Source: Chloroflexota bacterium (lineage in GTDB: Bacteria; Chloroflexota; Limnocylindria; Limnocylindrales; CSP1-4). From it: a DNA stretch of 64,000 nucleotides. The stretch lies in contig PMYK01000023.1 of NCBI GenBank assembly GCA_003171255.1, forward strand, positions 113,945 through 177,944. The letters are read 5' to 3'. Under the pieces are notes generated by a model. It made no database searches, was not told where the DNA came from, and worked only from the letters and a program-made list of their open reading frames with translations. The position numbers were made by a program, and so were the translations under genes. Numbering within the stretch: the stretch's first letter is position 1; every line of letters begins with the position of its first letter. This document shows, one piece after another, positions 31,531 through 44,864 of the stretch.

Positions 31531-32805
31531 CTAGGTGCCGACCACCGTCAGCGGCTCCATTGCGACCGGTTCGACCGCGGCGCGCGAGACTCGCGTATGG
31601 GCCGGCAGCGCCAGCACGGAGATCACGCCGCCCACGGCCGTCGCTCCGGCCAGGAACCAGAACACCACCTCCGTGCCGCCGAGCTTGTAGATGAAGGCGC
31701 CGGCCAGGTTCGACAGGACGGCGGCCGCCCCGAAAGCCACCGATTGGTACAGAGTCTGACCCGTCGAAACCAGCCTCTGCGGCAGGATGGTGGCCATCGT
31801 GATCACGAATGAGACCGTGACCCCGGCGAAGAAGAGGCCGGCCACCATCTTCGTGGCCGTGATCACCAGCGGCTCCGTCACGAGGGCCCAGGTGCCGAAC
31901 ACCATTGCCAGGCCCAGGGCCGAGACACCGAGGACGGGTCTGATCCCGTAGCGGACGGCGAGCCAGCTGGCCAGGATCATCCCGGGCACCTCGGCCGATG
32001 CGCCGAGACCGTTGGCGAACCCGATCGTCGAAGGGCCGCCCCCGAGCGCCTGCAGCCGCAACGTGATGAAGGTGCCGCCGCCCATGATGCCGATGAAGAT
32101 CCCCAGGCAGCCGATCAGTATGGCGATCAGCCGCGGCCGGCCGTTCAGCGCGTCGGAGACGGACCCGAAGCGGCCGTGGCCGGTGGCGGTCGCTGGACCG
32201 CTCGGCCTGGGGTTGGCCTGAGCTGGCTTCCCGGTGCCGGCAACGGTCACGGCCTTCTCGGCCGGCGTGCGTCCGCCGTGGCCCTGCGGGATCCGCACGG
32301 CGATGAAGGCGATCGCGATCGTTGTCAGCGCCCCGGCGACTGGGGCCACCACATAGCCCGTATGGTCGTAGAGGACGCCCGATACGATCGCGAACACCCC
32401 GCCGCCCAGGCTGCCGAGCATCCTTAGCCGGCCGTATTCGCGCTGCGGGTCGGCCAGTCCGGAGACTGCCTGGGCATCGGTCAGAGCGCTGATCGCGCCG
32501 CCGGTCGCAGACCCGGCCACGCATAGCAGCAGGATCGGCAGGACGGGCAGCGGCAGGGCCAGGCCAAGCACGAGCACGGCCGCAGGTATGGCTGCCAGCT
32601 GGAGCGCTCGACGCGTTCCGACTACGGCGTCGCCGAGATGGCCCCAGACCGGCAGGGCGAGCCAGAATGCGAGCGACCCCAGGCTCCCGCAGATCGCCAC
32701 CAGCGGGGCGTCGAAGCCGTGCCAGGTCAGGATCACCGGCACGAACGCGTAGAAGGTGCCGTAAACAGCACCGTTGGCGAGGTAGAGAATCCGGAGCCAG
32801 CGCAT
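31531..32805 (-). CDS. MFS transporter
   Basis: 12 predicted TM segments with a central cytoplasmic loop, MFS-like; no further subfamily assignment. Confidence 0.75.
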   Translation of the reverse strand: MRWLRILYLANGAVYGTFYAFVPVILTWHGFDAPLVAICGSLGSLAFWLALPVWGHLGDAVVGTRRALQLAAIPAAVLVLGLALPLPVLPILLLCVAGSATGGAISALTDAQAVSGLADPQREYGRLRMLGSLGGGVFAIVSGVLYDHTGYVVAPVAGALTTIAIAFIAVRIPQGHGGRTPAEKAVTVAGTGKPAQANPRPSGPATATGHGRFGSVSDALNGRPRLIAILIGCLGIFIGIMGGGTFITLRLQALGGGPSTIGFANGLGASAEVPGMILASWLAVRYGIRPVLGVSALGLAMVFGTWALVTEPLVITATKMVAGLFFAGVTVSFVITMATILPQRLVSTGQTLYQSVAFGAAAVLSNLAGAFIYKLGGTEVVFWFLAGATAVGGVISVLALPAHTRVSRAAVEPVAMEPLTVVGT

Positions 32806-32863
32806 CCGGAAATGGTACCCTCGGCCGCCTCCGGGCTACCTCATCGGCCTTACGTAGGCCCTA

Positions 32864-33070
32864 TTGGGGTGCTGGCAGTCGCGGGACCATTGGCATACCG
32901 TTGGAGCGCGACGTGACGTCCATCGGCTGAACTGCGTCATCCACCTCCTCTCGTCGATCCCGTACGAAGACACAACGCCGGACCAGATCGTCCTTCCGCC
33001 TCAACAGGTCGACACGACCTACGTCCGCCCTCCGCTCAAGAAGCAGCACTTCGTTCCCGAAACGCACTGA
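32864..33070 (+). CDS. Possible small hypothetical protein (about 68 aa, ...LNCVIHLLSSIPYEDTTPDQIVLPPQQVDTTYVRPPLKKQHFVPETH)
   Basis: Third-position GC about 78% on this frame against about 60% for the antisense frame; ends 35 nt before the ligase-like gene; only a TTG start and a weak RBS. Confidence 0.25.
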   Translation: MGCWQSRDHWHTVGARRDVHRLNCVIHLLSSIPYEDTTPDQIVLPPQQVDTTYVRPPLKKQHFVPETH

Positions 33071-33104
33071 CGGGCCCGGCTCCGGCAGGGTTTAGTATCG
33101 GGAC

Positions 33105-33839
33105 GTGTCCGACCAGCTCTCGCTGAGCCTCACCGGCGACGTGGCGCGCCTGCCACGGTCGATGCGGCCGATGCTGCCCAAACCCGCCGACGCCGCCTTC
33201 GACTCGGACGAGCACGTCTTCGAGCCACGCTGGGGTGGGCGCCGCGTCCTGGCGTTCATCGAGCCCGATCGTCCGGATCGCGGCCCGCGCCTGCGCCTGG
33301 TCGATGACAACGGCCGCGACCTGACCGCGTACTTCCCGGAGCTGGCCACCCTCGCCGACCTGGTGGGCGATCTGCCGGCCATCCTCGACGGCGAGCTCGT
33401 GATGCCCGACAAGGTCGGTCGGATGGACGAGGACGCCATGGCCGGCCGCATCTCCGACGGTGAGACTTCCGGTACAACGCCCGTCTATCTCGCCTTCGAC
33501 CTGCTCTGGGCCGGCGGCCGACCGATCATCGCCCAACCTCTCCTGCGCCGCCGCGAGCGACTGGCCAGGATCATCCACGCCGGCGCCGAGCTGGTGGTTC
33601 TGCCCGGCGTAGTCCGCGATGGCCTGGACCTCTACTCTGCGGTGGCCCAGCAGGGGCTGCACGGCGTCATGGCTCGCCACCTGCGGAGCCCCTACCTGCC
33701 GGGACGTCGCAGCGAGCTGTGGCGCTGGATCGCCTCTCAGCCCGGCGAGATGCCGCTCCATGCCGTGCCGGACCCGATTGTGGAAGTCCCGCAGCGGCCC
33801 GTCCTGGCGCTGATCCAGAGACTGCCCCTCGAGGACTGA
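33105..33839 (+). CDS. ATP-dependent DNA ligase-like protein, adenylation-domain only, with the catalytic lysine substituted (probable inactive paralog or relic)
   Basis: Ligase motifs recognisable but degenerate: motif I EPRWGGRR (expected K-x-D-G-x-R), motif III LDGELV, IIIa VYLAFDLL, IV GLHGVMARH (K to R), V RRSELWRWI (K to R/W); no OB-fold domain before the stop. Confidence 0.55.
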   Translation: MSDQLSLSLTGDVARLPRSMRPMLPKPADAAFDSDEHVFEPRWGGRRVLAFIEPDRPDRGPRLRLVDDNGRDLTAYFPELATLADLVGDLPAILDGELVMPDKVGRMDEDAMAGRISDGETSGTTPVYLAFDLLWAGGRPIIAQPLLRRRERLARIIHAGAELVVLPGVVRDGLDLYSAVAQQGLHGVMARHLRSPYLPGRRSELWRWIASQPGEMPLHAVPDPIVEVPQRPVLALIQRLPLED

Positions 33840-33846
33840 GAGTGTC

Positions 33847-35154
33847 CTAGCGAGAGACGCGGGCCGCCAGGAAGACCTGCCGGAGGCTGACGCGCTGGCC
33901 GTAGAGGAGAACGCCGGCACTGTAGATGCGGGCCGCGACGAACAGGGCAACGCCAACGCTGATCAACAGCACCAGAGCAGACAGGCCGAACTCCCACATC
34001 TCCACATGGCCCGCAGAGACCCGCGCCAGCATCAGGTATGGGCTGAAGAAGGGCACGAACGAGGCGATCTTGACCCACGAATCGTCGATCGCCTGGAGTC
34101 CAAGGATGGACATGAAGTAGCCCGCCATGACCAGCATCGTCAGTGGCGAGGCCGCGCTCTGGACGTCCTCCTGCCGGCTCACGAGCGAGCCGAGGGCCGC
34201 GTAAAGCAGCGAGTACATGAGAAAGCCAAGCACGAACAGGACCACGAACGCGGCCAGGACCGTTGGGTCCATGCCGCCGAATGGAGTGCCCGTCGACGTC
34301 CCAACTACCGCCTTGTGAATCTGGCCTTGAGCGAGGAGCCCACCCACCACCGCGGCCAGGATGATCCCGTATTGCGTCAACCCCGCCGCACCGTTGCCGA
34401 TGACCTTGCCGGCGAGCATCTGCAGCGGCGTGGTGGCGTTGAGCATCAGCTCCATGACCCGGCTGCCCTTCTCCTCGGCCACGCTCATTGCGACCCACTG
34501 ACCGTAGGTGATGATGGCCATGAAGATCAGCATGATCAACCCGGTGGAGAGCAGGTTGGTCGAGACCTCGTGGCTGATGCTGTTAGTGCCCGCCGAAGCC
34601 GCATTCGTCGGGCCGATCGTGAGCGCGAACGGGGCCGTCAGGGCGCCGGTCGATGTACCGGCCCGGAATAGCCTGTCATCGATCTCCAGGGACAGGAGGG
34701 CATCGACGATCGAACTGACCGCGGGCCCGTCCTGAGGGGTGTCGGTTCGAAGGGTGAACCCAAGGTCATTGGTGGCGGGGTCTCGAGCGACGATGAGGAG
34801 CGCGTCGTACTTGCCCTTCTCGAGGTCCTTCTGCGTCGCCGCGACATCCCCGCCGGGCAGCCAGCTGAGCACAAAGGCCTTGTGAGTGTTCGGGTCACCC
34901 GCCGGCCCGTTGAGCTGACCGTCGAGCACCGAGAGAGAGTCCGAGGGCATGCCTGCCGCCTCGACGACGACGGCGATGCGAGTCTGACTGGTGGTGATGG
35001 AGTAGTCGATCAGCACCGGCAGCTGGGTCGCGGCGAAGGCGACCAACGCCAGTAGACCAGTGCCGACGACGAAGCTGCGGGTCCGCGCCCGAGCGCGATA
35101 CTCGCGAACGGCTATGTGCCAGGCGTTGGGAAAGAGAGTCCGCCAGCCCTTCAT
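33847..35154 (-). CDS. ABC-2 family transporter permease
   Basis: N-terminal TM helix, large extracytoplasmic domain, then five C-terminal TM helices; 4-nt overlap with the upstream ATPase gene. Confidence 0.7.
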   Translation of the reverse strand: MKGWRTLFPNAWHIAVREYRARARTRSFVVGTGLLALVAFAATQLPVLIDYSITTSQTRIAVVVEAAGMPSDSLSVLDGQLNGPAGDPNTHKAFVLSWLPGGDVAATQKDLEKGKYDALLIVARDPATNDLGFTLRTDTPQDGPAVSSIVDALLSLEIDDRLFRAGTSTGALTAPFALTIGPTNAASAGTNSISHEVSTNLLSTGLIMLIFMAIITYGQWVAMSVAEEKGSRVMELMLNATTPLQMLAGKVIGNGAAGLTQYGIILAAVVGGLLAQGQIHKAVVGTSTGTPFGGMDPTVLAAFVVLFVLGFLMYSLLYAALGSLVSRQEDVQSAASPLTMLVMAGYFMSILGLQAIDDSWVKIASFVPFFSPYLMLARVSAGHVEMWEFGLSALVLLISVGVALFVAARIYSAGVLLYGQRVSLRQVFLAARVSR

Positions 35155-40871: not shown

Positions 40872-43037
40872 GTGACCGCAATCATCCGCAGGACAGCCGC
40901 CAGGCCCGCGCCCCCCAAGGGCGAGGCTGGTTCGGCGTTCCCGTACATCAACCGTGAGCTGAGCTCCCTGGAGTTCAACCACCGTGTCCTGTACGAGGCC
41001 GGCGATGAGCGGAATCCGTTGCTGGAGCGGATCAAGTTTCTGGCCATCTTCGCCAGCAACATGGATGAGTTCTTTCAGATCCGCGTATCCGGACTGATGG
41101 AGCAGGCGGAAGCCCACGCCGTTTCGGCCACACCGGGCGAGAAGCCCGCCGCCGAGCAGCTGGCTGATATCCGGACGCGATTCCGCTCGCTGCTCGATGA
41201 GCAGCGCGAGGTCTTCGAGCGAGTCTGCCGGGAGCTTGCGACGGCCGGCATCGACATCGTCGACTACGCCGACGTGCCCGACTACCACGCGGAGCTGCGG
41301 CAGCGCTTCATCGACGAGATCTATCCCGTGCTGACGCCCCTGGCCGTGGATCCCGGCCATCCATTCCCCTATATCAGCACGTTGAGCCTCTCCATCGCAA
41401 TCCGCATGGAAGATCCCGATGAGCGGGAGGAGCGGTTCGCTCGCGTCAAGGTGCCGCCGGTTCTGCCACGTTTCCTCCAGGTCGGGCAGAGCAAGTTCGT
41501 CCTCCTCGAACAGGTCATCGCCGCCAACCTGGACATGCTCTTCTCGGGCATGACCATCCTCGAGACTCACCTGTTCCGCGTCACCCGCGATGCGGATCTG
41601 GAGCTCCAGGAGGACGAGGCTGACGACCTCATGCTGGCCCTCGAGGAGGAGCTTCGCCGACGGCGCTTCGGCGACGCAGTTCGACTCGAGGTCGACAAGG
41701 TCATGCCCGCTTCGATGCGCAGGGTCCTCGAGAAGGGCGTGGGCGTCGACCCCGCAGACTGCTACGAGATCCCCGGCATGCTCGACCACACCGGCCTCTG
41801 GCAGATCGCCGGGCTGGACCGGCCCGATCTCAAGCTGCCCCCCTACTCGCCTGTCGTGCCGTCCCGCCTGGTGCAGCTCGACGAGGACGAGCCGGCCGAT
41901 GTCTTCGCCGCGATCCGCAACGGCGACATCCTCGTCCACCATCCATACGAGAGCTTCGCGGCCTCGACGCAGCGCTTCATCACCCAGGCGGCTACGGATC
42001 CCGAAGTCCTGTCGATCAAGATGACCCTGTATCGCACGAGCGGCGACTCGCCGATCATCCGGGACCTGATTTCCGCAGCGGAACGAGGCAAGCAGGTCGT
42101 GGTCCTGGTGGAGATCAAGGCCCGTTTCGACGAAGAGGCGAACATCGTCTGGGCTCGCAAGCTCGAGCAGGCCGGCGCTCATGTCGTTTACGGACTGGTC
42201 GGCCTGAAGACGCACTCCAAGACATCGCTCGTGGTTCGCCGCGAAGGGTCGACCCTCAGGCGCTACGTCCACATCGGAACGGGGAACTACAACTCCGGCA
42301 CGGCCCGGCTGTACACGGACTTCGGGCTGCTGTCCTGTCGTCCCGAGCTCGGCGCCGACGTCAGCGACCTCTTCAACGTGCTGACCGGCCTGTCCCGGCA
42401 GCGCGACTTCAGGCGCCTCATCGTGGCCCCGATGAACCTTCGCAGCTGGATCCTCGAGATGATCCAACGCGAGACCGACCACGCCCGAGCCGGCCGGCCG
42501 GCTCGCATCATCCTGAAGTTGAACTCCCTCGTGGACCCTGCCTGCGTCGCCGGGTTGTACGAGGCGTGGCAAGCGGGAGTCCGGGTCGACCTCATCATCC
42601 GCGGCATCTGCTCCTTGTGGCCCGGCATCCCTGAGATCAGCGAGGGCATCCGCGTTCGGTCGATCGTCGGCCAGTACCTCGAGCACTCTCGGGTCTTCTC
42701 GTTCCTCAACGGCGGCGAGCCGGAGCTGTTCATCGGTTCGGCCGACCTCATGGAGCGGAACCTCGATCGCCGCGTCGAGGCGCTCGTACCCATTGAGGAC
42801 CCGGAGGCCAGGGCTCGGATCGACGCCGTGCTCGACGTGATGCTGGCAGACGACCGGCGGTCCTGGCAGCTGGGCGCCGATGGCAAGTACCACCGAACCG
42901 AAGATCTGACCGGCGCACGGGGTACCATCGACACGTTCGAGACGCTCAAGGGGCAAGCCGTCGAGATGGCGACGGCTGCGGTCGTGGCACCCCACCGACC
43001 GCATGCCGGCATGGGCTCGCTCGATCCGAGGGCATAG
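40872..43037 (+). CDS. ppk: Polyphosphate kinase 1
   Basis: PPK1 N-terminal FINRELSSLEFNHRVL, two PLD-like HxK domains, full length of about 720 aa. Confidence 0.9.
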   Translation: MTAIIRRTAARPAPPKGEAGSAFPYINRELSSLEFNHRVLYEAGDERNPLLERIKFLAIFASNMDEFFQIRVSGLMEQAEAHAVSATPGEKPAAEQLADIRTRFRSLLDEQREVFERVCRELATAGIDIVDYADVPDYHAELRQRFIDEIYPVLTPLAVDPGHPFPYISTLSLSIAIRMEDPDEREERFARVKVPPVLPRFLQVGQSKFVLLEQVIAANLDMLFSGMTILETHLFRVTRDADLELQEDEADDLMLALEEELRRRRFGDAVRLEVDKVMPASMRRVLEKGVGVDPADCYEIPGMLDHTGLWQIAGLDRPDLKLPPYSPVVPSRLVQLDEDEPADVFAAIRNGDILVHHPYESFAASTQRFITQAATDPEVLSIKMTLYRTSGDSPIIRDLISAAERGKQVVVLVEIKARFDEEANIVWARKLEQAGAHVVYGLVGLKTHSKTSLVVRREGSTLRRYVHIGTGNYNSGTARLYTDFGLLSCRPELGADVSDLFNVLTGLSRQRDFRRLIVAPMNLRSWILEMIQRETDHARAGRPARIILKLNSLVDPACVAGLYEAWQAGVRVDLIIRGICSLWPGIPEISEGIRVRSIVGQYLEHSRVFSFLNGGEPELFIGSADLMERNLDRRVEALVPIEDPEARARIDAVLDVMLADDRRSWQLGADGKYHRTEDLTGARGTIDTFETLKGQAVEMATAAVVAPHRPHAGMGSLDPRA

Positions 43038-43061: not shown

Positions 43062-44864
43062 ATGTCTACGGGCCGCAGGATTGAAGTCGAGACAAAGTTC
43101 CAGGTGGCGTCGCCCGGCGGAGCCGATCGCTACCTGGTGGCACCCGAGCTCGGCCCATTCACGCCCGCCGGACCGATCAACTCAGAACGGGTGGAGGATC
43201 GCTACGTCGACTCGCCAGACTGGGCGCTGGCTCGGGCGGGCTTCGCGGCGCGTCTGCGCAAGACGTCACACGGCACCGAGATCAGCCTCAAGGCTCTGAA
43301 CGTTTCCAGTGGACAGTTCCAACGTCGCGAGGAAATCGAGGGTCCGGCCGATGCGGGTTTGATTCCCGCTGATTGGCCCGCCTCGCAGGCCCGGAACGTG
43401 GTCATGGAGCTTTGCGGCGACGAGGCCGTAGTCGAGTTCCTGACGATACGGCAGCTGCGGCGGTCACGACCTCTGCAGGCCCGCGGCACGCGGGTCGAGT
43501 TGAGCCTCGACGAGGTCGAGATCGTGGGCGACGGGAGGGTCCTCGACAGCTTCGAGGAGCTCGAGGTCGAGTTGAAGCGAGGCGCCGAGACGCCGCTGGC
43601 CGCGCTGGCCGCCATCCTCGGGACCGATGACAGCCTGCGCCCGGTCTCGCGTTCCAAGCTCGCTCGGGGCGTGAAGGCGATCCGAGCAGCCATGCCGTCG
43701 ATGCCGCAGGATCTCCAGAAGCGCTGGCTTGAGGCACCCGCCGACCTGCTCGGGGCCAAGCCCAAGATGCGCCGCGGCGGGGCGGCCGCCGAGGACTCGA
43801 TGGCCGACGCCGAGGAGACGGCGGGCACCGAGACCGAGACCGAGCTTGCCCCAGTGGCCGAGGAGGCCACGGCTGACCCCGCAGCGGCTGACCCGGCAGC
43901 GGCCGAGCCGCCGGTCCGAACCAGACTCGGCCCTCGCACGCTCGGCGTGCTCGCCGAGGACAGCCTGCCCGAGGCCGCATGCAAGGTACTGCGATTCCAC
44001 TTCTCCAAGATGCAGCACCGCGAAGAGGGAACCCGCGCCGGCACCGACCCAGAAGAAGTCCACGATATGCGCGTCGCCACCAGGAGAATGCGGGCGGCCT
44101 GGCGCGTATTCGACGGTGCCTTCAAGTCGGGCAAGACCAAGAAGATTCGTCGGCACCTCGAGACGATCGCGGACCGGCTCGGAGTGGTGCGCGACCTGGA
44201 CGTTCTGATCGGGGGCCTCGAGGCCTACAGCAACGGCCTGGACGAGGATCATCAGCCAGGCCTCAATCCCATGCTGTCGCTCTGGCGCCGGCAGCGGTCG
44301 TCGGCTCGGAAGGAACTCATAGCCGAGCTGGATTCGGACCGATACGCGACCTTCACCACGGAGATGGACGCATTTCTGGACGCCGGGGCCAATAGCGCAG
44401 CCGCGGTGGCCACGCCGACGGCCCCGCACCGCGTCCGGGACCGCGCCGCGTCCGCGATCTGGGCCGCCTACGAGGCAGTCCGAGCCTACGAGCTGGTCCT
44501 GCCCTGGGCAGACGTGGAGACCCTGCACGACCTCAGGATCGCGACGAAGTGGCTGCGATACACGCTGGAGTTCTTCGGCGAGACGCTCGGCCCGGACTCG
44601 GCGCTTCTGCTCGAGCGAGTCGCGGCCCTGCAGGACCACCTCGGTTGCCTCAACGACGCCGATGTCGCCACGAAGCTGGCCCGCGACCTTCTGGTGGCCC
44701 GGGCCGACGAGTTGTCCACGGTGGAGTCGGAGGCGATCGGTGCCTATCTCCACTCCCGCGAGCGCGAGGTCGCCCGCCGGCGGCGGGCGCTCGGCCCGGT
44801 CTGGCGGGCAGTCGACGGGGCCCCGTTCCGCCGCGCCCTGGGTCGGGCAACGGCCGCCCTGTAG
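43062..44864 (+). CDS. CYTH-domain plus CHAD-domain protein (triphosphate tunnel metalloenzyme-like, polyphosphate-associated)
   Basis: N-terminal CYTH signature IEVETKFQV ... EISLK; C-terminal CHAD with HDMRVATRRMRAAWRVF; acidic Ala/Glu-rich linker. Confidence 0.75.
   Translation: MSTGRRIEVETKFQVASPGGADRYLVAPELGPFTPAGPINSERVEDRYVDSPDWALARAGFAARLRKTSHGTEISLKALNVSSGQFQRREEIEGPADAGLIPADWPASQARNVVMELCGDEAVVEFLTIRQLRRSRPLQARGTRVELSLDEVEIVGDGRVLDSFEELEVELKRGAETPLAALAAILGTDDSLRPVSRSKLARGVKAIRAAMPSMPQDLQKRWLEAPADLLGAKPKMRRGGAAAEDSMADAEETAGTETETELAPVAEEATADPAAADPAAAEPPVRTRLGPRTLGVLAEDSLPEAACKVLRFHFSKMQHREEGTRAGTDPEEVHDMRVATRRMRAAWRVFDGAFKSGKTKKIRRHLETIADRLGVVRDLDVLIGGLEAYSNGLDEDHQPGLNPMLSLWRRQRSSARKELIAELDSDRYATFTTEMDAFLDAGANSAAAVATPTAPHRVRDRAASAIWAAYEAVRAYELVLPWADVETLHDLRIATKWLRYTLEFFGETLGPDSALLLERVAALQDHLGCLNDADVATKLARDLLVARADELSTVESEAIGAYLHSREREVARRRRALGPVWRAVDGAPFRRALGRATAAL

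What the first reader, a model, noticed from the sequence alone, without database searches (positions are those of the whole stretch)
32864..33839. ATP-dependent DNA ligase homolog with the catalytic lysine replaced by arginine and no OB domain, preceded by a possible small ORF
- The 244-aa protein has the ligase nucleotidyltransferase motifs in the correct order.
- Every lysine in them is substituted:
  - motif I KxDGxR reads RWGGRR;
  - motif IV reads ...MARH;
  - motif V reads LWRWI.
- The protein ends about 40 residues after motif V, so there is no OB fold.
- The adenylated lysine is indispensable for ligation, so this is a catalytically dead ligase-like protein or a decaying LigC/LigD remnant.
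- It has no Ku partner nearby.
- A 68-codon ORF with coding-like third-position GC ends 35 nt upstream and may be cotranscribed.
Basis: partly seen in the sequence, partly recalled or inferred. Interest (0 to 1): 0.6.

Follow-up and report, generated by a model that had tools for sequence, protein, structure and literature searches.

The report
Conserved catalytically dead DNA-ligase relative
This gene encodes a protein with the fold of a DNA ligase's ATP-binding domain but none of the residues needed to seal DNA; it is kept under selection across a class of Chloroflexota, so it is a working non-enzyme (probably a DNA-repair adaptor) and not a broken gene, and the small ORF in front of it is the leftover tail of a deleted polyphosphate kinase gene.

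Summary
ORF 33105..33839 (+) encodes a 244-aa ATP-dependent-ligase adenylation domain (PF01068; closest to the M. tuberculosis LigD ligase domain). It has no motif I, IV or V lysine and no OB domain.

It is not decaying. The gene has intact, same-length orthologues in Limnocylindria (Chloroflexota); about 500 species genomes encode a relative. dN/dS is 0.06-0.20. The "catalytic" position is R, W, S, N, T, A or C in 79 species and never K, and no lysine is conserved anywhere. Adenosine-pocket residues (R47, E97, F131) stay nearly invariant.

Two tethered terminal peptides are invariant: N-terminal DQLxLxL, which matches the beta-clamp-binding hexapeptide, and C-terminal PVLALIxRLPL(D/E). A K-intact ligase and a second, more degenerate K-less paralogue carry the same peptides, and both sit directly downstream of Ku.

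Best reading: a ligase-derived pseudoenzyme that acts as a peptide-tethered adaptor in nick or end repair. The partner and the function are inferred.

The 68-codon ORF is the 3' remnant of a PPK2 gene that is intact in relatives. The ligase-like gene has its own conserved -10 box 6 nt upstream of its start, so its mRNA is probably leaderless.

No description of this family was found in the literature.

The parts
33105..33839 (+). Gene for the 244-aa lysine-less, OB-less ligase adenylation-domain protein ('type B'); GTG start, TGA stop
33093..33098 (+). -10-like hexamer TAGTAT, 6 nt upstream of the GTG. It is the gene's own promoter element and the mRNA is probably leaderless (inferred).
   Evidence: TAnnAT lies 6-11 nt upstream of the start codon in 74 of 79 orthologues, against 0.7% of random 22-mers. 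The generic sigma-70 scan found no full two-hexamer promoter.
33111..33131 (+). N-terminal peptide motif D3-Q-L-S-L-S-L9 (family pattern DQLxLxL); candidate beta-clamp-binding or partner-binding linear motif
   Evidence: Present in 79 of 79 species, at residues 3-9 in nearly all of them. Present in representatives below 50% identity. pLDDT 66 in the model. Consensus comparison from PMC12309361.
33219..33245 (+). Motif I equivalent F39-E-P-R-W-G-G-R-R47. The nucleophile Lys is Arg here (variable in the family) and the motif Asp is Gly. R47 is kept.
33381..33401 (+). Motif III I93-L-D-G-E-L-V99. D95, G96 and E97 are retained.
   Evidence: D95 and G96 in 79 of 79, E97 in 77 of 79
33489..33509 (+). 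Motif IIIa L129-A-F-D-L-L-W135. F131 and D132 are retained.
   Evidence: F131 in 77 of 79, D132 in 79 of 79
33654..33680 (+). Motif IV equivalent G184-L-H-G-V-M-A-R-H192. The canonical Glu is His (variable) and the canonical Lys is Arg (R191 invariant).
33690..33731 (+). P196-Y-L-P-G-R-R-S-E-L-W-R-W-I209: LigD-type PYxPGxRS segment plus the motif V equivalent. Both motif V lysines are lost.
33735..33794 (+). Variable proline-rich linker, residues 211-230, with low model confidence
33795..33836 (+). C-terminal peptide motif R231-P-V-L-A-L-I-Q-R-L-P-L-E-D244 (family pattern PxLAhhxRLP[LF][DE]), with a predicted short helix at residues 233-239
   Evidence: Also present in the Ku-adjacent type A paralogue and in the OB-retaining P0135.
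32864..33070 (+). The 68-codon ORF, which is the 3' remnant of a deleted PPK2 (polyphosphate kinase 2) gene. Only codons from about 10-21 to 68 (32891..33067) are PPK2-derived. It is not a gene in its own right.
   Evidence: - tblastn hits the C-termini of PPK2 genes of about 300 aa in more than 30 loci.
- L010:7067-7966 is PF03976 with E 8e-105.
- Residue-by-residue alignment.
- No gene is called here in four independent assemblies.

Best explanation
The gene encodes a pseudoenzyme: a non-catalytic descendant of a Ku-associated, stand-alone LigD-type ATP-dependent DNA ligase.

**What it kept and lost.** It keeps the adenylation-domain fold and the residues that hold the adenosine moiety (R47, E97, F131). 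It has lost the nucleophilic lysine, the motif I aspartate, the motif Ia arginine, the motif IV glutamate and lysine, both motif V lysines and the whole OB domain. It therefore cannot self-adenylylate or seal nicks.

**What selection preserves best.** The most strongly conserved elements are two short peptides tethered to the core by linkers. One is N-terminal, DQLxLxL. The other is C-terminal, PVLALIxRLPL(D/E).

**Proposed mechanism (inferred).** The peptides dock the protein onto a DNA-bound ring protein. The N-terminal one fits the beta-clamp-binding hexapeptide QLxLxL, and Ku is the alternative or second partner. The ligase-fold core, possibly with a bound adenine nucleotide, then acts as a structural or regulatory module at nicks or ends. 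This would resemble the non-catalytic role of ligase-dead LIG4 in NHEJ.

**Expression.** The gene is transcribed from its own -10 element directly upstream of the start codon, probably as a leaderless mRNA.

**Shown:** fold, loss of catalytic residues, purifying selection, motif conservation, Ku linkage of relatives, promoter-element conservation.

**Inferred:** partner identity, nucleotide binding, role in repair.
For: - **Fold and homology:**
- **No lysine:** motif I position is R31/W25/S13/N6/T2/A1/C1 in 79 species. No alignment column reaches 30% K.
- **Other catalytic or DNA-contact residues:** the motif Ia Arg of the canonical consensus RLxxRxGxDxT is E/A/D here.
- **Selection:**
  - 120 close homologues have the same length.
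  - 496 species genomes encode a relative.
  - dN/dS is 0.06-0.20 at dS 0.19-0.40; window versus L010 gives 0.159.
- **Pocket residues:** R47 in 79/79, E97 in 77/79 and F131 in 77/79. The Ku-adjacent paralogue with the same fold has replaced them: R47 to S/P, E97 to T/A/S, F131 to S in 118/120. Their retention here is therefore not merely structural.
- **Terminal motifs:**
  - DQLxLxL in 79/79 and the RLP[LF] tail in all.
  - Both persist in representatives below 50% identity while the linkers vary in length and sequence.
  - Model confidence is low in the tail.
- **Ku link:**
  - The K-intact NTase+OB relative P0306/P0143 carries N-terminal DQLQIEL and lies 26 nt downstream of Ku.
  - The K-less type A paralogue carries both motifs and lies directly downstream of Ku, overlapping it by 4 nt in two of the three loci read.
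  - 24 contig lengths are shared between the Ku and type A hit lists.
  - The OB-retaining K-less intermediate P0135 has both motifs.
- **Clamp motif:** consensus QL[S/D]LF and the tight-binding Hda hexapeptide QLSLPL, from PMC12309361.
- **Precedent:** a structural role for catalytically dead LIG4, PMC9638927 and PMC10858965.
- **Promoter:**
Against: - No Ku lies within the 64-kb window or within +/-8-10 kb of any of 90 type B loci.
- I could not show that type B and Ku occur in the same genome. The long contigs in the type B lists and the Ku lists do not overlap.
- Assigning the motifs to the beta-clamp or to Ku rests on sequence resemblance and shared ancestry only. No complex prediction or binding data exist.
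- The basic motif Ia residues are replaced by acidic ones, which argues against canonical nick binding by the core.
- The locus sits in a conserved polyphosphate neighbourhood: PPK2 directly upstream in 29/79 loci, and PPK1-CYTH/CHAD 0.6-7.9 kb downstream on the same strand in 59/79. This could point to a role in nucleotide or polyphosphate metabolism instead.
- Nucleotide binding is untested.
Confidence: 0.5

Rival explanations
1. Adenine-nucleotide (or related ligand) sensor or regulator tied to polyphosphate metabolism rather than to DNA repair. The retained adenosine pocket would bind AMP, ADP, ATP or a similar ligand non-covalently, and the protein would act within the conserved PPK2 / PPK1 / CYTH-CHAD neighbourhood.
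For: - PPK2 lies on the same strand, typically 34-39 nt upstream, in 29 of 79 loci.
- PPK1 lies on the same strand 0.6-7.9 kb downstream in 59 of 79 loci; 12 of the remaining loci have less than 6 kb of downstream sequence.
- In L094 the gene heads a same-strand run: lig-like, GBBH_N, YbjQ, hypothetical, PPK1, CYTH/CHAD, His_Phos.
- Pocket residues R47, E97 and F131 are nearly invariant, whereas the Ku-linked paralogue lost them.
Against: - The window genome deleted the adjacent PPK2 but kept the ligase-like gene intact.
- PPK2 is absent from the neighbourhood in the more distant subfamily and in L007.
- Variable genes on the opposite strand separate the gene from PPK1.
- The gene has its own promoter.
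- The terminal motifs are shared with Ku-operon ligases, not with polyphosphate proteins.
- Synteny within one class may simply be inherited gene order.
Confidence: 0.17
2. It is still an enzyme with non-canonical chemistry. Examples are sealing or de-adenylylating pre-adenylylated (AppDNA) nicks without a covalent lysyl-AMP step, or working in trans with a separately encoded OB-fold or catalytic subunit.
For: - Motif III and IIIa residues, R47, and the invariant R191 and R207 could still position an adenylate.
- From my own knowledge, not tested here: motif I lysine mutants of Chlorella virus ligase can still close pre-adenylylated nicks.
Against: - The motif I Asp, motif Ia Arg, motif IV Glu and both motif V lysines are all gone.
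- The OB domain needed for steps 1 and 3 is absent.
- The former nucleophile position tolerates W, S, N, T, A and C.
- No conserved partner gene is adjacent.
Confidence: 0.08
3. Decaying pseudogene or simple truncation of a LigC/LigD gene.
For: Loss of all catalytic lysines and of the OB domain.
Against: - The ORF is intact and of the same length in about 500 species genomes.
- dN/dS is 0.06-0.20.
- 90 or more invariant positions in alignment A1, including both termini.
- A promoter element is conserved.
- No orthologue at this locus has KxDG or an OB domain.
Confidence: 0.02

Closest known systems
Ligase domain of bacterial LigD / stand-alone LigC-type ATP-dependent DNA ligases (e.g. M. tuberculosis LigD LigDom, PDB 1vs0, 6nhx)
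   Same: - Same adenylation (nucleotidyltransferase) fold, about 30% identity.
- Motifs III and IIIa, the PYxPGxRS segment and the motif I arginine are retained.
- The closest K-intact relative that carries the N-terminal motif (P0306/P0143) is encoded next to Ku.
   Different: - No nucleophilic lysine.
- No motif I Asp, no motif Ia Arg, no motif IV Glu or Lys, no motif V lysines.
- No OB domain, no POL or PE domains, no adjacent Ku.
- Gains two invariant terminal peptide motifs that 83 of 87 K-intact representatives lack.
Ku-adjacent lysine-less paralogue in Limnocylindria
   Same: Ligase adenylation-domain homologue of about 233 aa with no lysine and no OB domain. It has the same N-terminal QLxLx[ILF] and C-terminal LLQRLP[LI] motifs.
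   Different: - Type A lies directly downstream of Ku, overlapping it by 4 nt in two of the three loci read.
- Type A has also lost the adenosine-pocket residues R47, E97 and F131.
- It is only about 35% identical to the window protein.
- The window's type B is stand-alone, keeps the pocket and has its own promoter.
Catalytically inactive DNA ligase IV acting structurally in eukaryotic NHEJ
   Same: A ligase scaffold that promotes repair without sealing (PMC9638927, PMC10858965; titles and abstracts seen). This is a functional analogy for a ligase-dead protein from a Ku-linked lineage.
   Different: LIG4 is normally active and the dead forms are engineered. It binds XRCC4 through BRCT domains. 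No homology exists beyond the shared ligase fold. The role of the bacterial protein is untested.
Beta-sliding-clamp-binding motifs (QL[S/D]LF; Hda N-terminal QLSLPL)
   Same: The N-terminal DQLSLSL fits QLxLxL and, as in Hda, sits at the extreme N-terminus on a linker.
   Different: Binding to DnaN is not shown. The motif could instead bind Ku or another partner. The C-terminal RLPL motif does not fit the clamp consensus.

Membership tests
ATP-dependent DNA ligase (functional enzyme; LigD LigDom / LigC type) | Adenylation (nucleotidyltransferase) domain, PF01068 fold | tested here: met
   PF01068 E 1.2e-14. Foldseek to 6nhx and 1vs0 gives E 2e-15 and rmsd 2.2-2.6 A.
ATP-dependent DNA ligase (functional enzyme; LigD LigDom / LigC type) | Motif I KxDGxR with the AMP-accepting lysine | tested here: not met
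   The motif reads RWGGRR here. The position is R/W/S/N/T/A/C and never K in 79 species, and no lysine is conserved anywhere.
ATP-dependent DNA ligase (functional enzyme; LigD LigDom / LigC type) | C-terminal OB-fold domain (PF04679) | tested here: not met
   Only PF01068 is found. The protein ends 35 residues after motif V with a low-confidence tail. Relatives P0143 and P0135 still have the OB domain.
ATP-dependent DNA ligase (functional enzyme; LigD LigDom / LigC type) | Motif IV (EGxxxK) and motif V (WxKxK) phosphate-contacting residues | tested here: not met
   The sequences are HGVMARH and LWRWI, and the loss is family-wide.
ATP-dependent DNA ligase (functional enzyme; LigD LigDom / LigC type) | Self-adenylylation and nick sealing activity | not testable with these tools
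   Needs purified protein and an [alpha-32P]ATP assay.
Bacterial NHEJ module (Ku + LigD) | Genomic linkage to, or co-occurrence with, Ku | tested here: inconclusive
   - No Ku in the window or in 90 type B loci.
- Ku is present in Limnocylindrales and is linked to the type A paralogue and to the K-intact relative.
- Co-occurrence in the same genome could not be checked.
Pseudoenzyme (conserved non-catalytic homologue of an enzyme) | Catalytic residues lost, yet the protein is under purifying selection with a conserved architecture | tested here: met
   dN/dS 0.06-0.20. 79 species-level orthologues and about 500 genomes encoding a relative.
Beta-clamp-binding proteins | Linear motif matching QL[S/D]LF or QLxLxL on an accessible terminus | tested here: met
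   DQLSLSL at residues 3-9, with DQLxLxL in 79 of 79 species. Consensus from PMC12309361.
Beta-clamp-binding proteins | Physical binding to the DnaN hydrophobic cleft | not testable with these tools
PPK2 (for the 68-codon ORF) | Full PPK2 domain (PF03976, about 230 residues, with the Walker A motif) | tested here: not met
   The ORF has no Pfam hit. Only the last 48-59 residues align to PPK2 C-termini. The intact PPK2 in L010 scores E 8e-105.

The most novel reading that the evidence does not exclude
Limnocylindria would have converted their Ku-associated ligase lineage into two ligase-dead, peptide-tethered adaptors: type A in the Ku operon and type B at this locus. These would scaffold end or nick repair on Ku and/or the beta-clamp, while another enzyme (for example LigA) does the sealing. 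That would be a bacterial counterpart of the non-catalytic LIG4/XRCC4-type scaffold. Type B would additionally read the adenylate or polyphosphate energy state through its retained adenosine pocket.
Probability: 0.2. Interest if true: 0.8.

Novelty: new variant of a known kind. Interest (0 to 1): 0.55.

Why it matters
- **Annotation.** Bacterial NHEJ is described as a two-component system of Ku plus a catalytic LigD. Surveys classify genomes by the presence of a ligase domain. This family is annotated "ATP-dependent DNA ligase" or "LigD" in public sources but cannot ligate. It therefore inflates NHEJ+ calls for a widespread soil, peat and freshwater class.
- **Biology.** A ligase fold kept under selection for hundreds of species after losing all its chemistry implies a non-catalytic job. 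The fold is flanked by two invariant docking peptides that Ku-operon relatives share. If the partner is the beta-clamp or Ku, this would be a natural bacterial example of a ligase-derived repair scaffold. It would also supply new short linear motifs for clamp or Ku recruitment.
- **A wider pattern.** Motif I lysine loss appears repeatedly among LigC/LigD-like proteins.

Tried and rejected
- **First AlphaFold run.** With only close homologues it was useless (pLDDT 48.7). It was redone with a 127-sequence alignment.
- **The search for related loci.** It failed on the broad alignment A2 and worked with A3.
- **Neighbourhood clustering.** Clustering raw ORFs gave unusable clusters, because high GC produces long spurious ORFs. 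Called-gene tables were used instead.
- **Recovering the P0135 contig.** I tried a metagenome scan to test whether an OB-retaining K-less protein and a type A protein share a contig. The contig was not found.
- **Same-genome co-occurrence of type B with Ku or type A.** Matching contig lengths across the hit lists gave no overlap, which is inconclusive because only the top 80-120 hits are listed.
- **Database and scan checks.**
  - PADLOC: no hit, so not a known defence-system component.
  - Rfam on 32400-34200: nothing meaningful.
  - The generic sigma-70 scan found no two-hexamer promoter. The conserved -10 element came from comparing orthologues.
- **Small ORF.** It was rejected as a gene because it is a PPK2 remnant.
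- **Opposite-strand ORF.** The 306-aa ORF 33036..33956 is treated as a high-GC artefact, because homology, dN/dS and Pfam all support the + strand.
- **AFDB fold search.** The library was unavailable.
- **Literature.** Searches for lysine-less or pseudo-ligases, and for clamp motifs in LigC/LigD, found no description of this family.
Full report
**1. What is in the sequence**

The + strand ORF 33105..33839 (GTG start, 244 aa) is real. It matches Pfam PF01068, the ATP-dependent DNA ligase adenylation domain, over residues 23-206 (E 1.2e-14). It matches LigD/NHEJ-ligase NCBIfam models only over their adenylation-domain part and far below their cut-offs.

The closest solved structure by sequence is the M. 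tuberculosis LigD ligase domain (1vs0, 6nhx; E about 1e-17). That alignment gives these substitutions:
- Motif I EGKWDGYR becomes EPRWGGRR.
- Motif IV EGVIAKR becomes HGVMARH.
- Motif V, canonically WLKVK as in the K-intact relative P0143, becomes LWRWI.

No OB domain is detected, and the protein ends 35 residues after motif V.

With a deep alignment (127 sequences) AlphaFold gives a confident model: pLDDT 89, pTM 0.85, with the core residues 11-210 above 86. Its best PDB matches are LigD, then archaeal and human ligase adenylation domains (E 2e-15, rmsd 2.2-2.6 A).

**2. It is not a decaying gene**

A search of 5.8 billion proteins returned 704 homologues. The best 120 are 72-99% identical, almost all 241-247 aa, and come from Candidatus Limnocylindrales / Chloroflexota MAGs. 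A scan of one genome per GTDB species found 496 genomes that encode a relative. The best 80 are all Chloroflexota, mostly Limnocylindria (taxonomy).

Nei-Gojobori dN/dS is 0.06-0.20 for pairs with unsaturated dS (0.19-0.40). For the window against its closest species representative L010, dN is 0.063, dS is 0.397 and omega is 0.159. Alignment A1 (the window protein plus 20 close homologues) has more than 90 invariant positions.

**3. The lysine is lost, not replaced**

Among 79 distinct species-level genes the motif I "lysine" position is R (31), W (25), S (13), N (6), T (2), A (1) or C (1), and never K. The following Gly-Gly, which replaces Asp-Gly, is invariant. No alignment column reaches 30% lysine, so no alternative conserved nucleophile exists.

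Other losses are also family-wide:
- The arginine of motif Ia, seen in the canonical consensus RLxxRxGxDxT, is E, A or D.
- The motif IV glutamate is variable.
- Both motif V lysines are gone.

By contrast, the residues that hold the adenosine in ligases remain almost invariant. That assignment of residues is from my own knowledge of the family. The counts are R47 in 79/79, D95 and G96 in 79/79, E97 in 77/79, F131 in 77/79 and D132 in 79/79. Two arginines that sit at or beside former lysine positions are also fixed: R191 in 79/79 and R207 in 76/79.

**4. Two invariant terminal peptides**

The sequence DQLxLxL is present in 79 of 79 genes, at residues 3-9 in nearly all of them. The extreme C-terminus reads PVLALIxRLP[LF][DE] in all of them.

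Both peptides persist in representatives that are less than 50% identical to the window protein. Meanwhile the segments that connect them to the core vary in length and composition. In the model the tail 211-244 has pLDDT 40-68 with a short helix at 233-239, and residues 1-10 have pLDDT 66. This is the pattern expected of tethered short linear motifs.

The N-terminal peptide fits the bacterial sliding-clamp-binding hexapeptide. The consensus is QL[S/D]LF, and the tight-binding N-terminal motif of Hda is QLSLPL (PMC12309361). The C-terminal peptide fits no motif I know.

**5. Ancestry: a Ku-linked ligase lineage**

An exhaustive profile search of 1.84 billion cluster representatives and motif extraction gave three results:
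- A broader K-less family of 240-280 aa carries both peptides.
- An intermediate, P0135 (362 aa), has motif I FEPSWDGLR but still has an OB domain inserted between motif V and the C-terminal peptide.
- A K-intact, apparently functional NTase+OB ligase, P0143/P0306, starts with DQLQIEL and ends in ...YDLTRFPF. It is encoded 26 nt downstream of Ku (L095-L097).

A second lysine-less paralogue also exists, which I call type A (P0255/P0440 family, about 233 aa). It lies directly downstream of Ku in all three loci I read:
- L093 and L101: 4-nt overlap with Ku.
- L100: 86-nt gap.

The identity of these Ku-adjacent genes was confirmed with the family HMM (E 1e-32 to 1e-40).

The Ku proteins concerned are 70-100% identical to Ku proteins named Candidatus Limnocylindrales. 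Twenty-four contig lengths are shared between the top-120 Ku list and the top-120 type A list, so the Ku-type A pairing is general.

Type A carries the same N-terminal (E/D)QLPLx(I/F) and ends exactly in ...LLQRLP(L/I). Unlike the window's family, it has also lost the adenosine-pocket residues: R47 to S/P, E97 to T/A/S, and F131 to S in 118 of 120 sequences.

Of 87 K-intact representatives, only P0143 and its truncated relative P0145 have the N-terminal motif. The peptides therefore mark a specific Ku-linked clade, and they predate the loss of the lysine and the OB domain.

**6. Context of the window's gene (type B)**

The gene is monocistronic. It diverges from or follows variable upstream genes, and it converges on an ABC-2 permease gene whose stop codon lies 7 nt beyond its own. 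Neither the window nor any of 90 related loci contains Ku.

A hexamer TAnnAT lies 6-11 nt upstream of the start codon in 74 of 79 orthologues (TACCAT 55, TAGTAT 12), although the surrounding sequence is otherwise unalignable. Such a hexamer occurs in 0.7% of random 22-mers. In the window it is TAGTAT at 33093-33098, 6 nt before the GTG. I read it as the gene's own -10 element and infer a leaderless or nearly leaderless transcript. A generic two-hexamer sigma-70 scan finds nothing.

**7. The 68-codon ORF**

The ORF has no Pfam or NCBIfam hit and is never called as a gene in four independent assemblies of this locus. Its residues 10/21-68 align at 45-75% identity to the C-termini of same-strand PPK2 genes of about 300 aa. 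Those genes end 34-39 nt upstream of the ligase-like gene in more than 30 relatives.

In the closest relative the gene is an intact PPK2 (PF03976, E 8e-105). Its last 48 residues are nearly identical to the window ORF.

Comparison with L010 shows that about 0.78 kb is missing in the window. That stretch includes the PPK2 start and the whole kinase domain. The same scar is 100% identical in four assemblies. This explains the ORF's "coding-like" composition: it is a gene remnant, not a small gene.

**8. Mechanism**

*Shown:*
- The protein has the ligase adenylation fold.
- It lacks every residue of phosphoryl-transfer chemistry, and it lacks the OB domain.
- It is under purifying selection.
- Its most constrained non-core elements are two terminal peptides shared with Ku-operon relatives.

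*Inferred:* it is a non-catalytic adaptor that its peptides dock onto a DNA-bound ring protein. The beta-clamp is suggested by the QLxLxL match, and Ku by ancestry and operon context. The core then serves as a structural or ligand-binding module. Retention of R47, E97 and F131, in contrast to type A, suggests that it still binds an adenine nucleotide or a related ligand. The documented structural role of ligase-dead LIG4 (PMC9638927, PMC10858965) is a functional analogy only.

*Against:*
- Ku linkage is not shown for type B itself.
- Motif Ia has turned acidic, which argues against canonical nick binding.
- The locus lies in a conserved polyphosphate neighbourhood. PPK2 is directly upstream in 29 of 79 loci. 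PPK1 lies 0.6-7.9 kb downstream on the same strand in 59 of 79 loci, followed by CYTH/CHAD in the gene tables examined. This supports a rival nucleotide or polyphosphate-sensor reading.

I put the pseudoenzyme conclusion above 0.9, the repair-adaptor mechanism near 0.45-0.5, and the specific clamp assignment near 0.35.

**9. Comparison with what is known, and novelty**

The protein is a homologue of LigD/LigC ligase domains but fails their defining features: the lysine, the OB domain and motifs IV and V. It should not be annotated as a DNA ligase or as LigD, as JGI sources do.

It has no PADLOC match and no Rfam element nearby. Full-text searches found no description of lysine-less LigD-like proteins, of their terminal motifs, or of Ku-adjacent dead ligases.

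I rate it a new variant of a known kind. It is of moderate to good interest to NHEJ and replication-repair specialists, and it is limited by the lack of any functional data and by the uncultured hosts.

Noticed in passing
window 32864..33070 (PPK2-derived part 32891..33067); compare L010:7067-7966: The small ORF is the 3' remnant of a PPK2 gene. About 0.78 kb, including the kinase domain, is deleted relative to the closest relative. The scar is identical in four independent assemblies.
   Followed up: yes
window 32901..32926 versus L010 7694..7719 (reverse strand): A 26-bp stretch inside the deletion scar matches L010 in inverted orientation (96% identity). The deletion therefore involved a small rearrangement and was not a clean excision.
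   Followed up: no
window 33093..33098; the equivalent position in 74 of 79 orthologous loci: A strongly conserved GG-nn-TACCAT/TAGTAT-CG element lies 6-11 nt upstream of the start codon, implying leaderless transcription. In the distant subfamily a further conserved upstream segment (…AGTCTAGCGGGCTACCATCG…) contains a short inverted repeat TAGC-n-GCTA that could be an operator.
   Followed up: partly
L093 7078-8711; L100 6001-7661; L101 10219-11870: Limnocylindria Ku genes are followed directly by a second, more degenerate lysine-less ligase-like gene (type A, with a 4-nt overlap in two of the three loci). In these operons Ku's operon partner is a dead ligase. No catalytic ATP-dependent ligase was seen within +/-6-8 kb.
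   Followed up: partly
L101 6001-6930 and 10219-11172: Two Ku genes lie 3.3 kb apart on one contig. Only the second is followed by the type A gene.
   Followed up: no
L093 9261-10394: A Beta-CASP/RMMBL metallo-beta-lactamase-fold nuclease gene lies on the same strand, 550 nt downstream of the Ku-type A pair. It is a possible end-processing partner.
   Followed up: no
window 40872..43037 (PPK1) and 43062..44864 (CYTH/CHAD); also L001, L005, L008, L091, L094: A polyphosphate gene set (GBBH-like_N, YbjQ, PPK1, CYTH/CHAD, sometimes His_Phos_1) lies on the same strand downstream of the ligase-like gene across the class. PPK1 is within 8 kb in 59 of 79 loci. In L094 the ligase-like gene directly heads this run, with an 18-nt gap.
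   Followed up: partly
representatives P0184, P0186, P0197, P0242, P0170/P0175, P0158, P0174, P0243, P0204: Many full-length (NTase+OB, 330-400 aa) LigC/LigD-like proteins also lack the motif I lysine (A, L, R, D or M at that position), and many of them keep the motif IV lysine. Lysine loss seems recurrent in this clade, and these proteins are the nearest relatives of the K-intact Ku-adjacent P0143.
   Followed up: no
window 33036..33956 (- strand): A 306-codon ORF is open on the opposite strand across the whole gene. It is a high-GC artefact (window GC 0.68); all homology and selection signals are on the + strand.
   Followed up: partly
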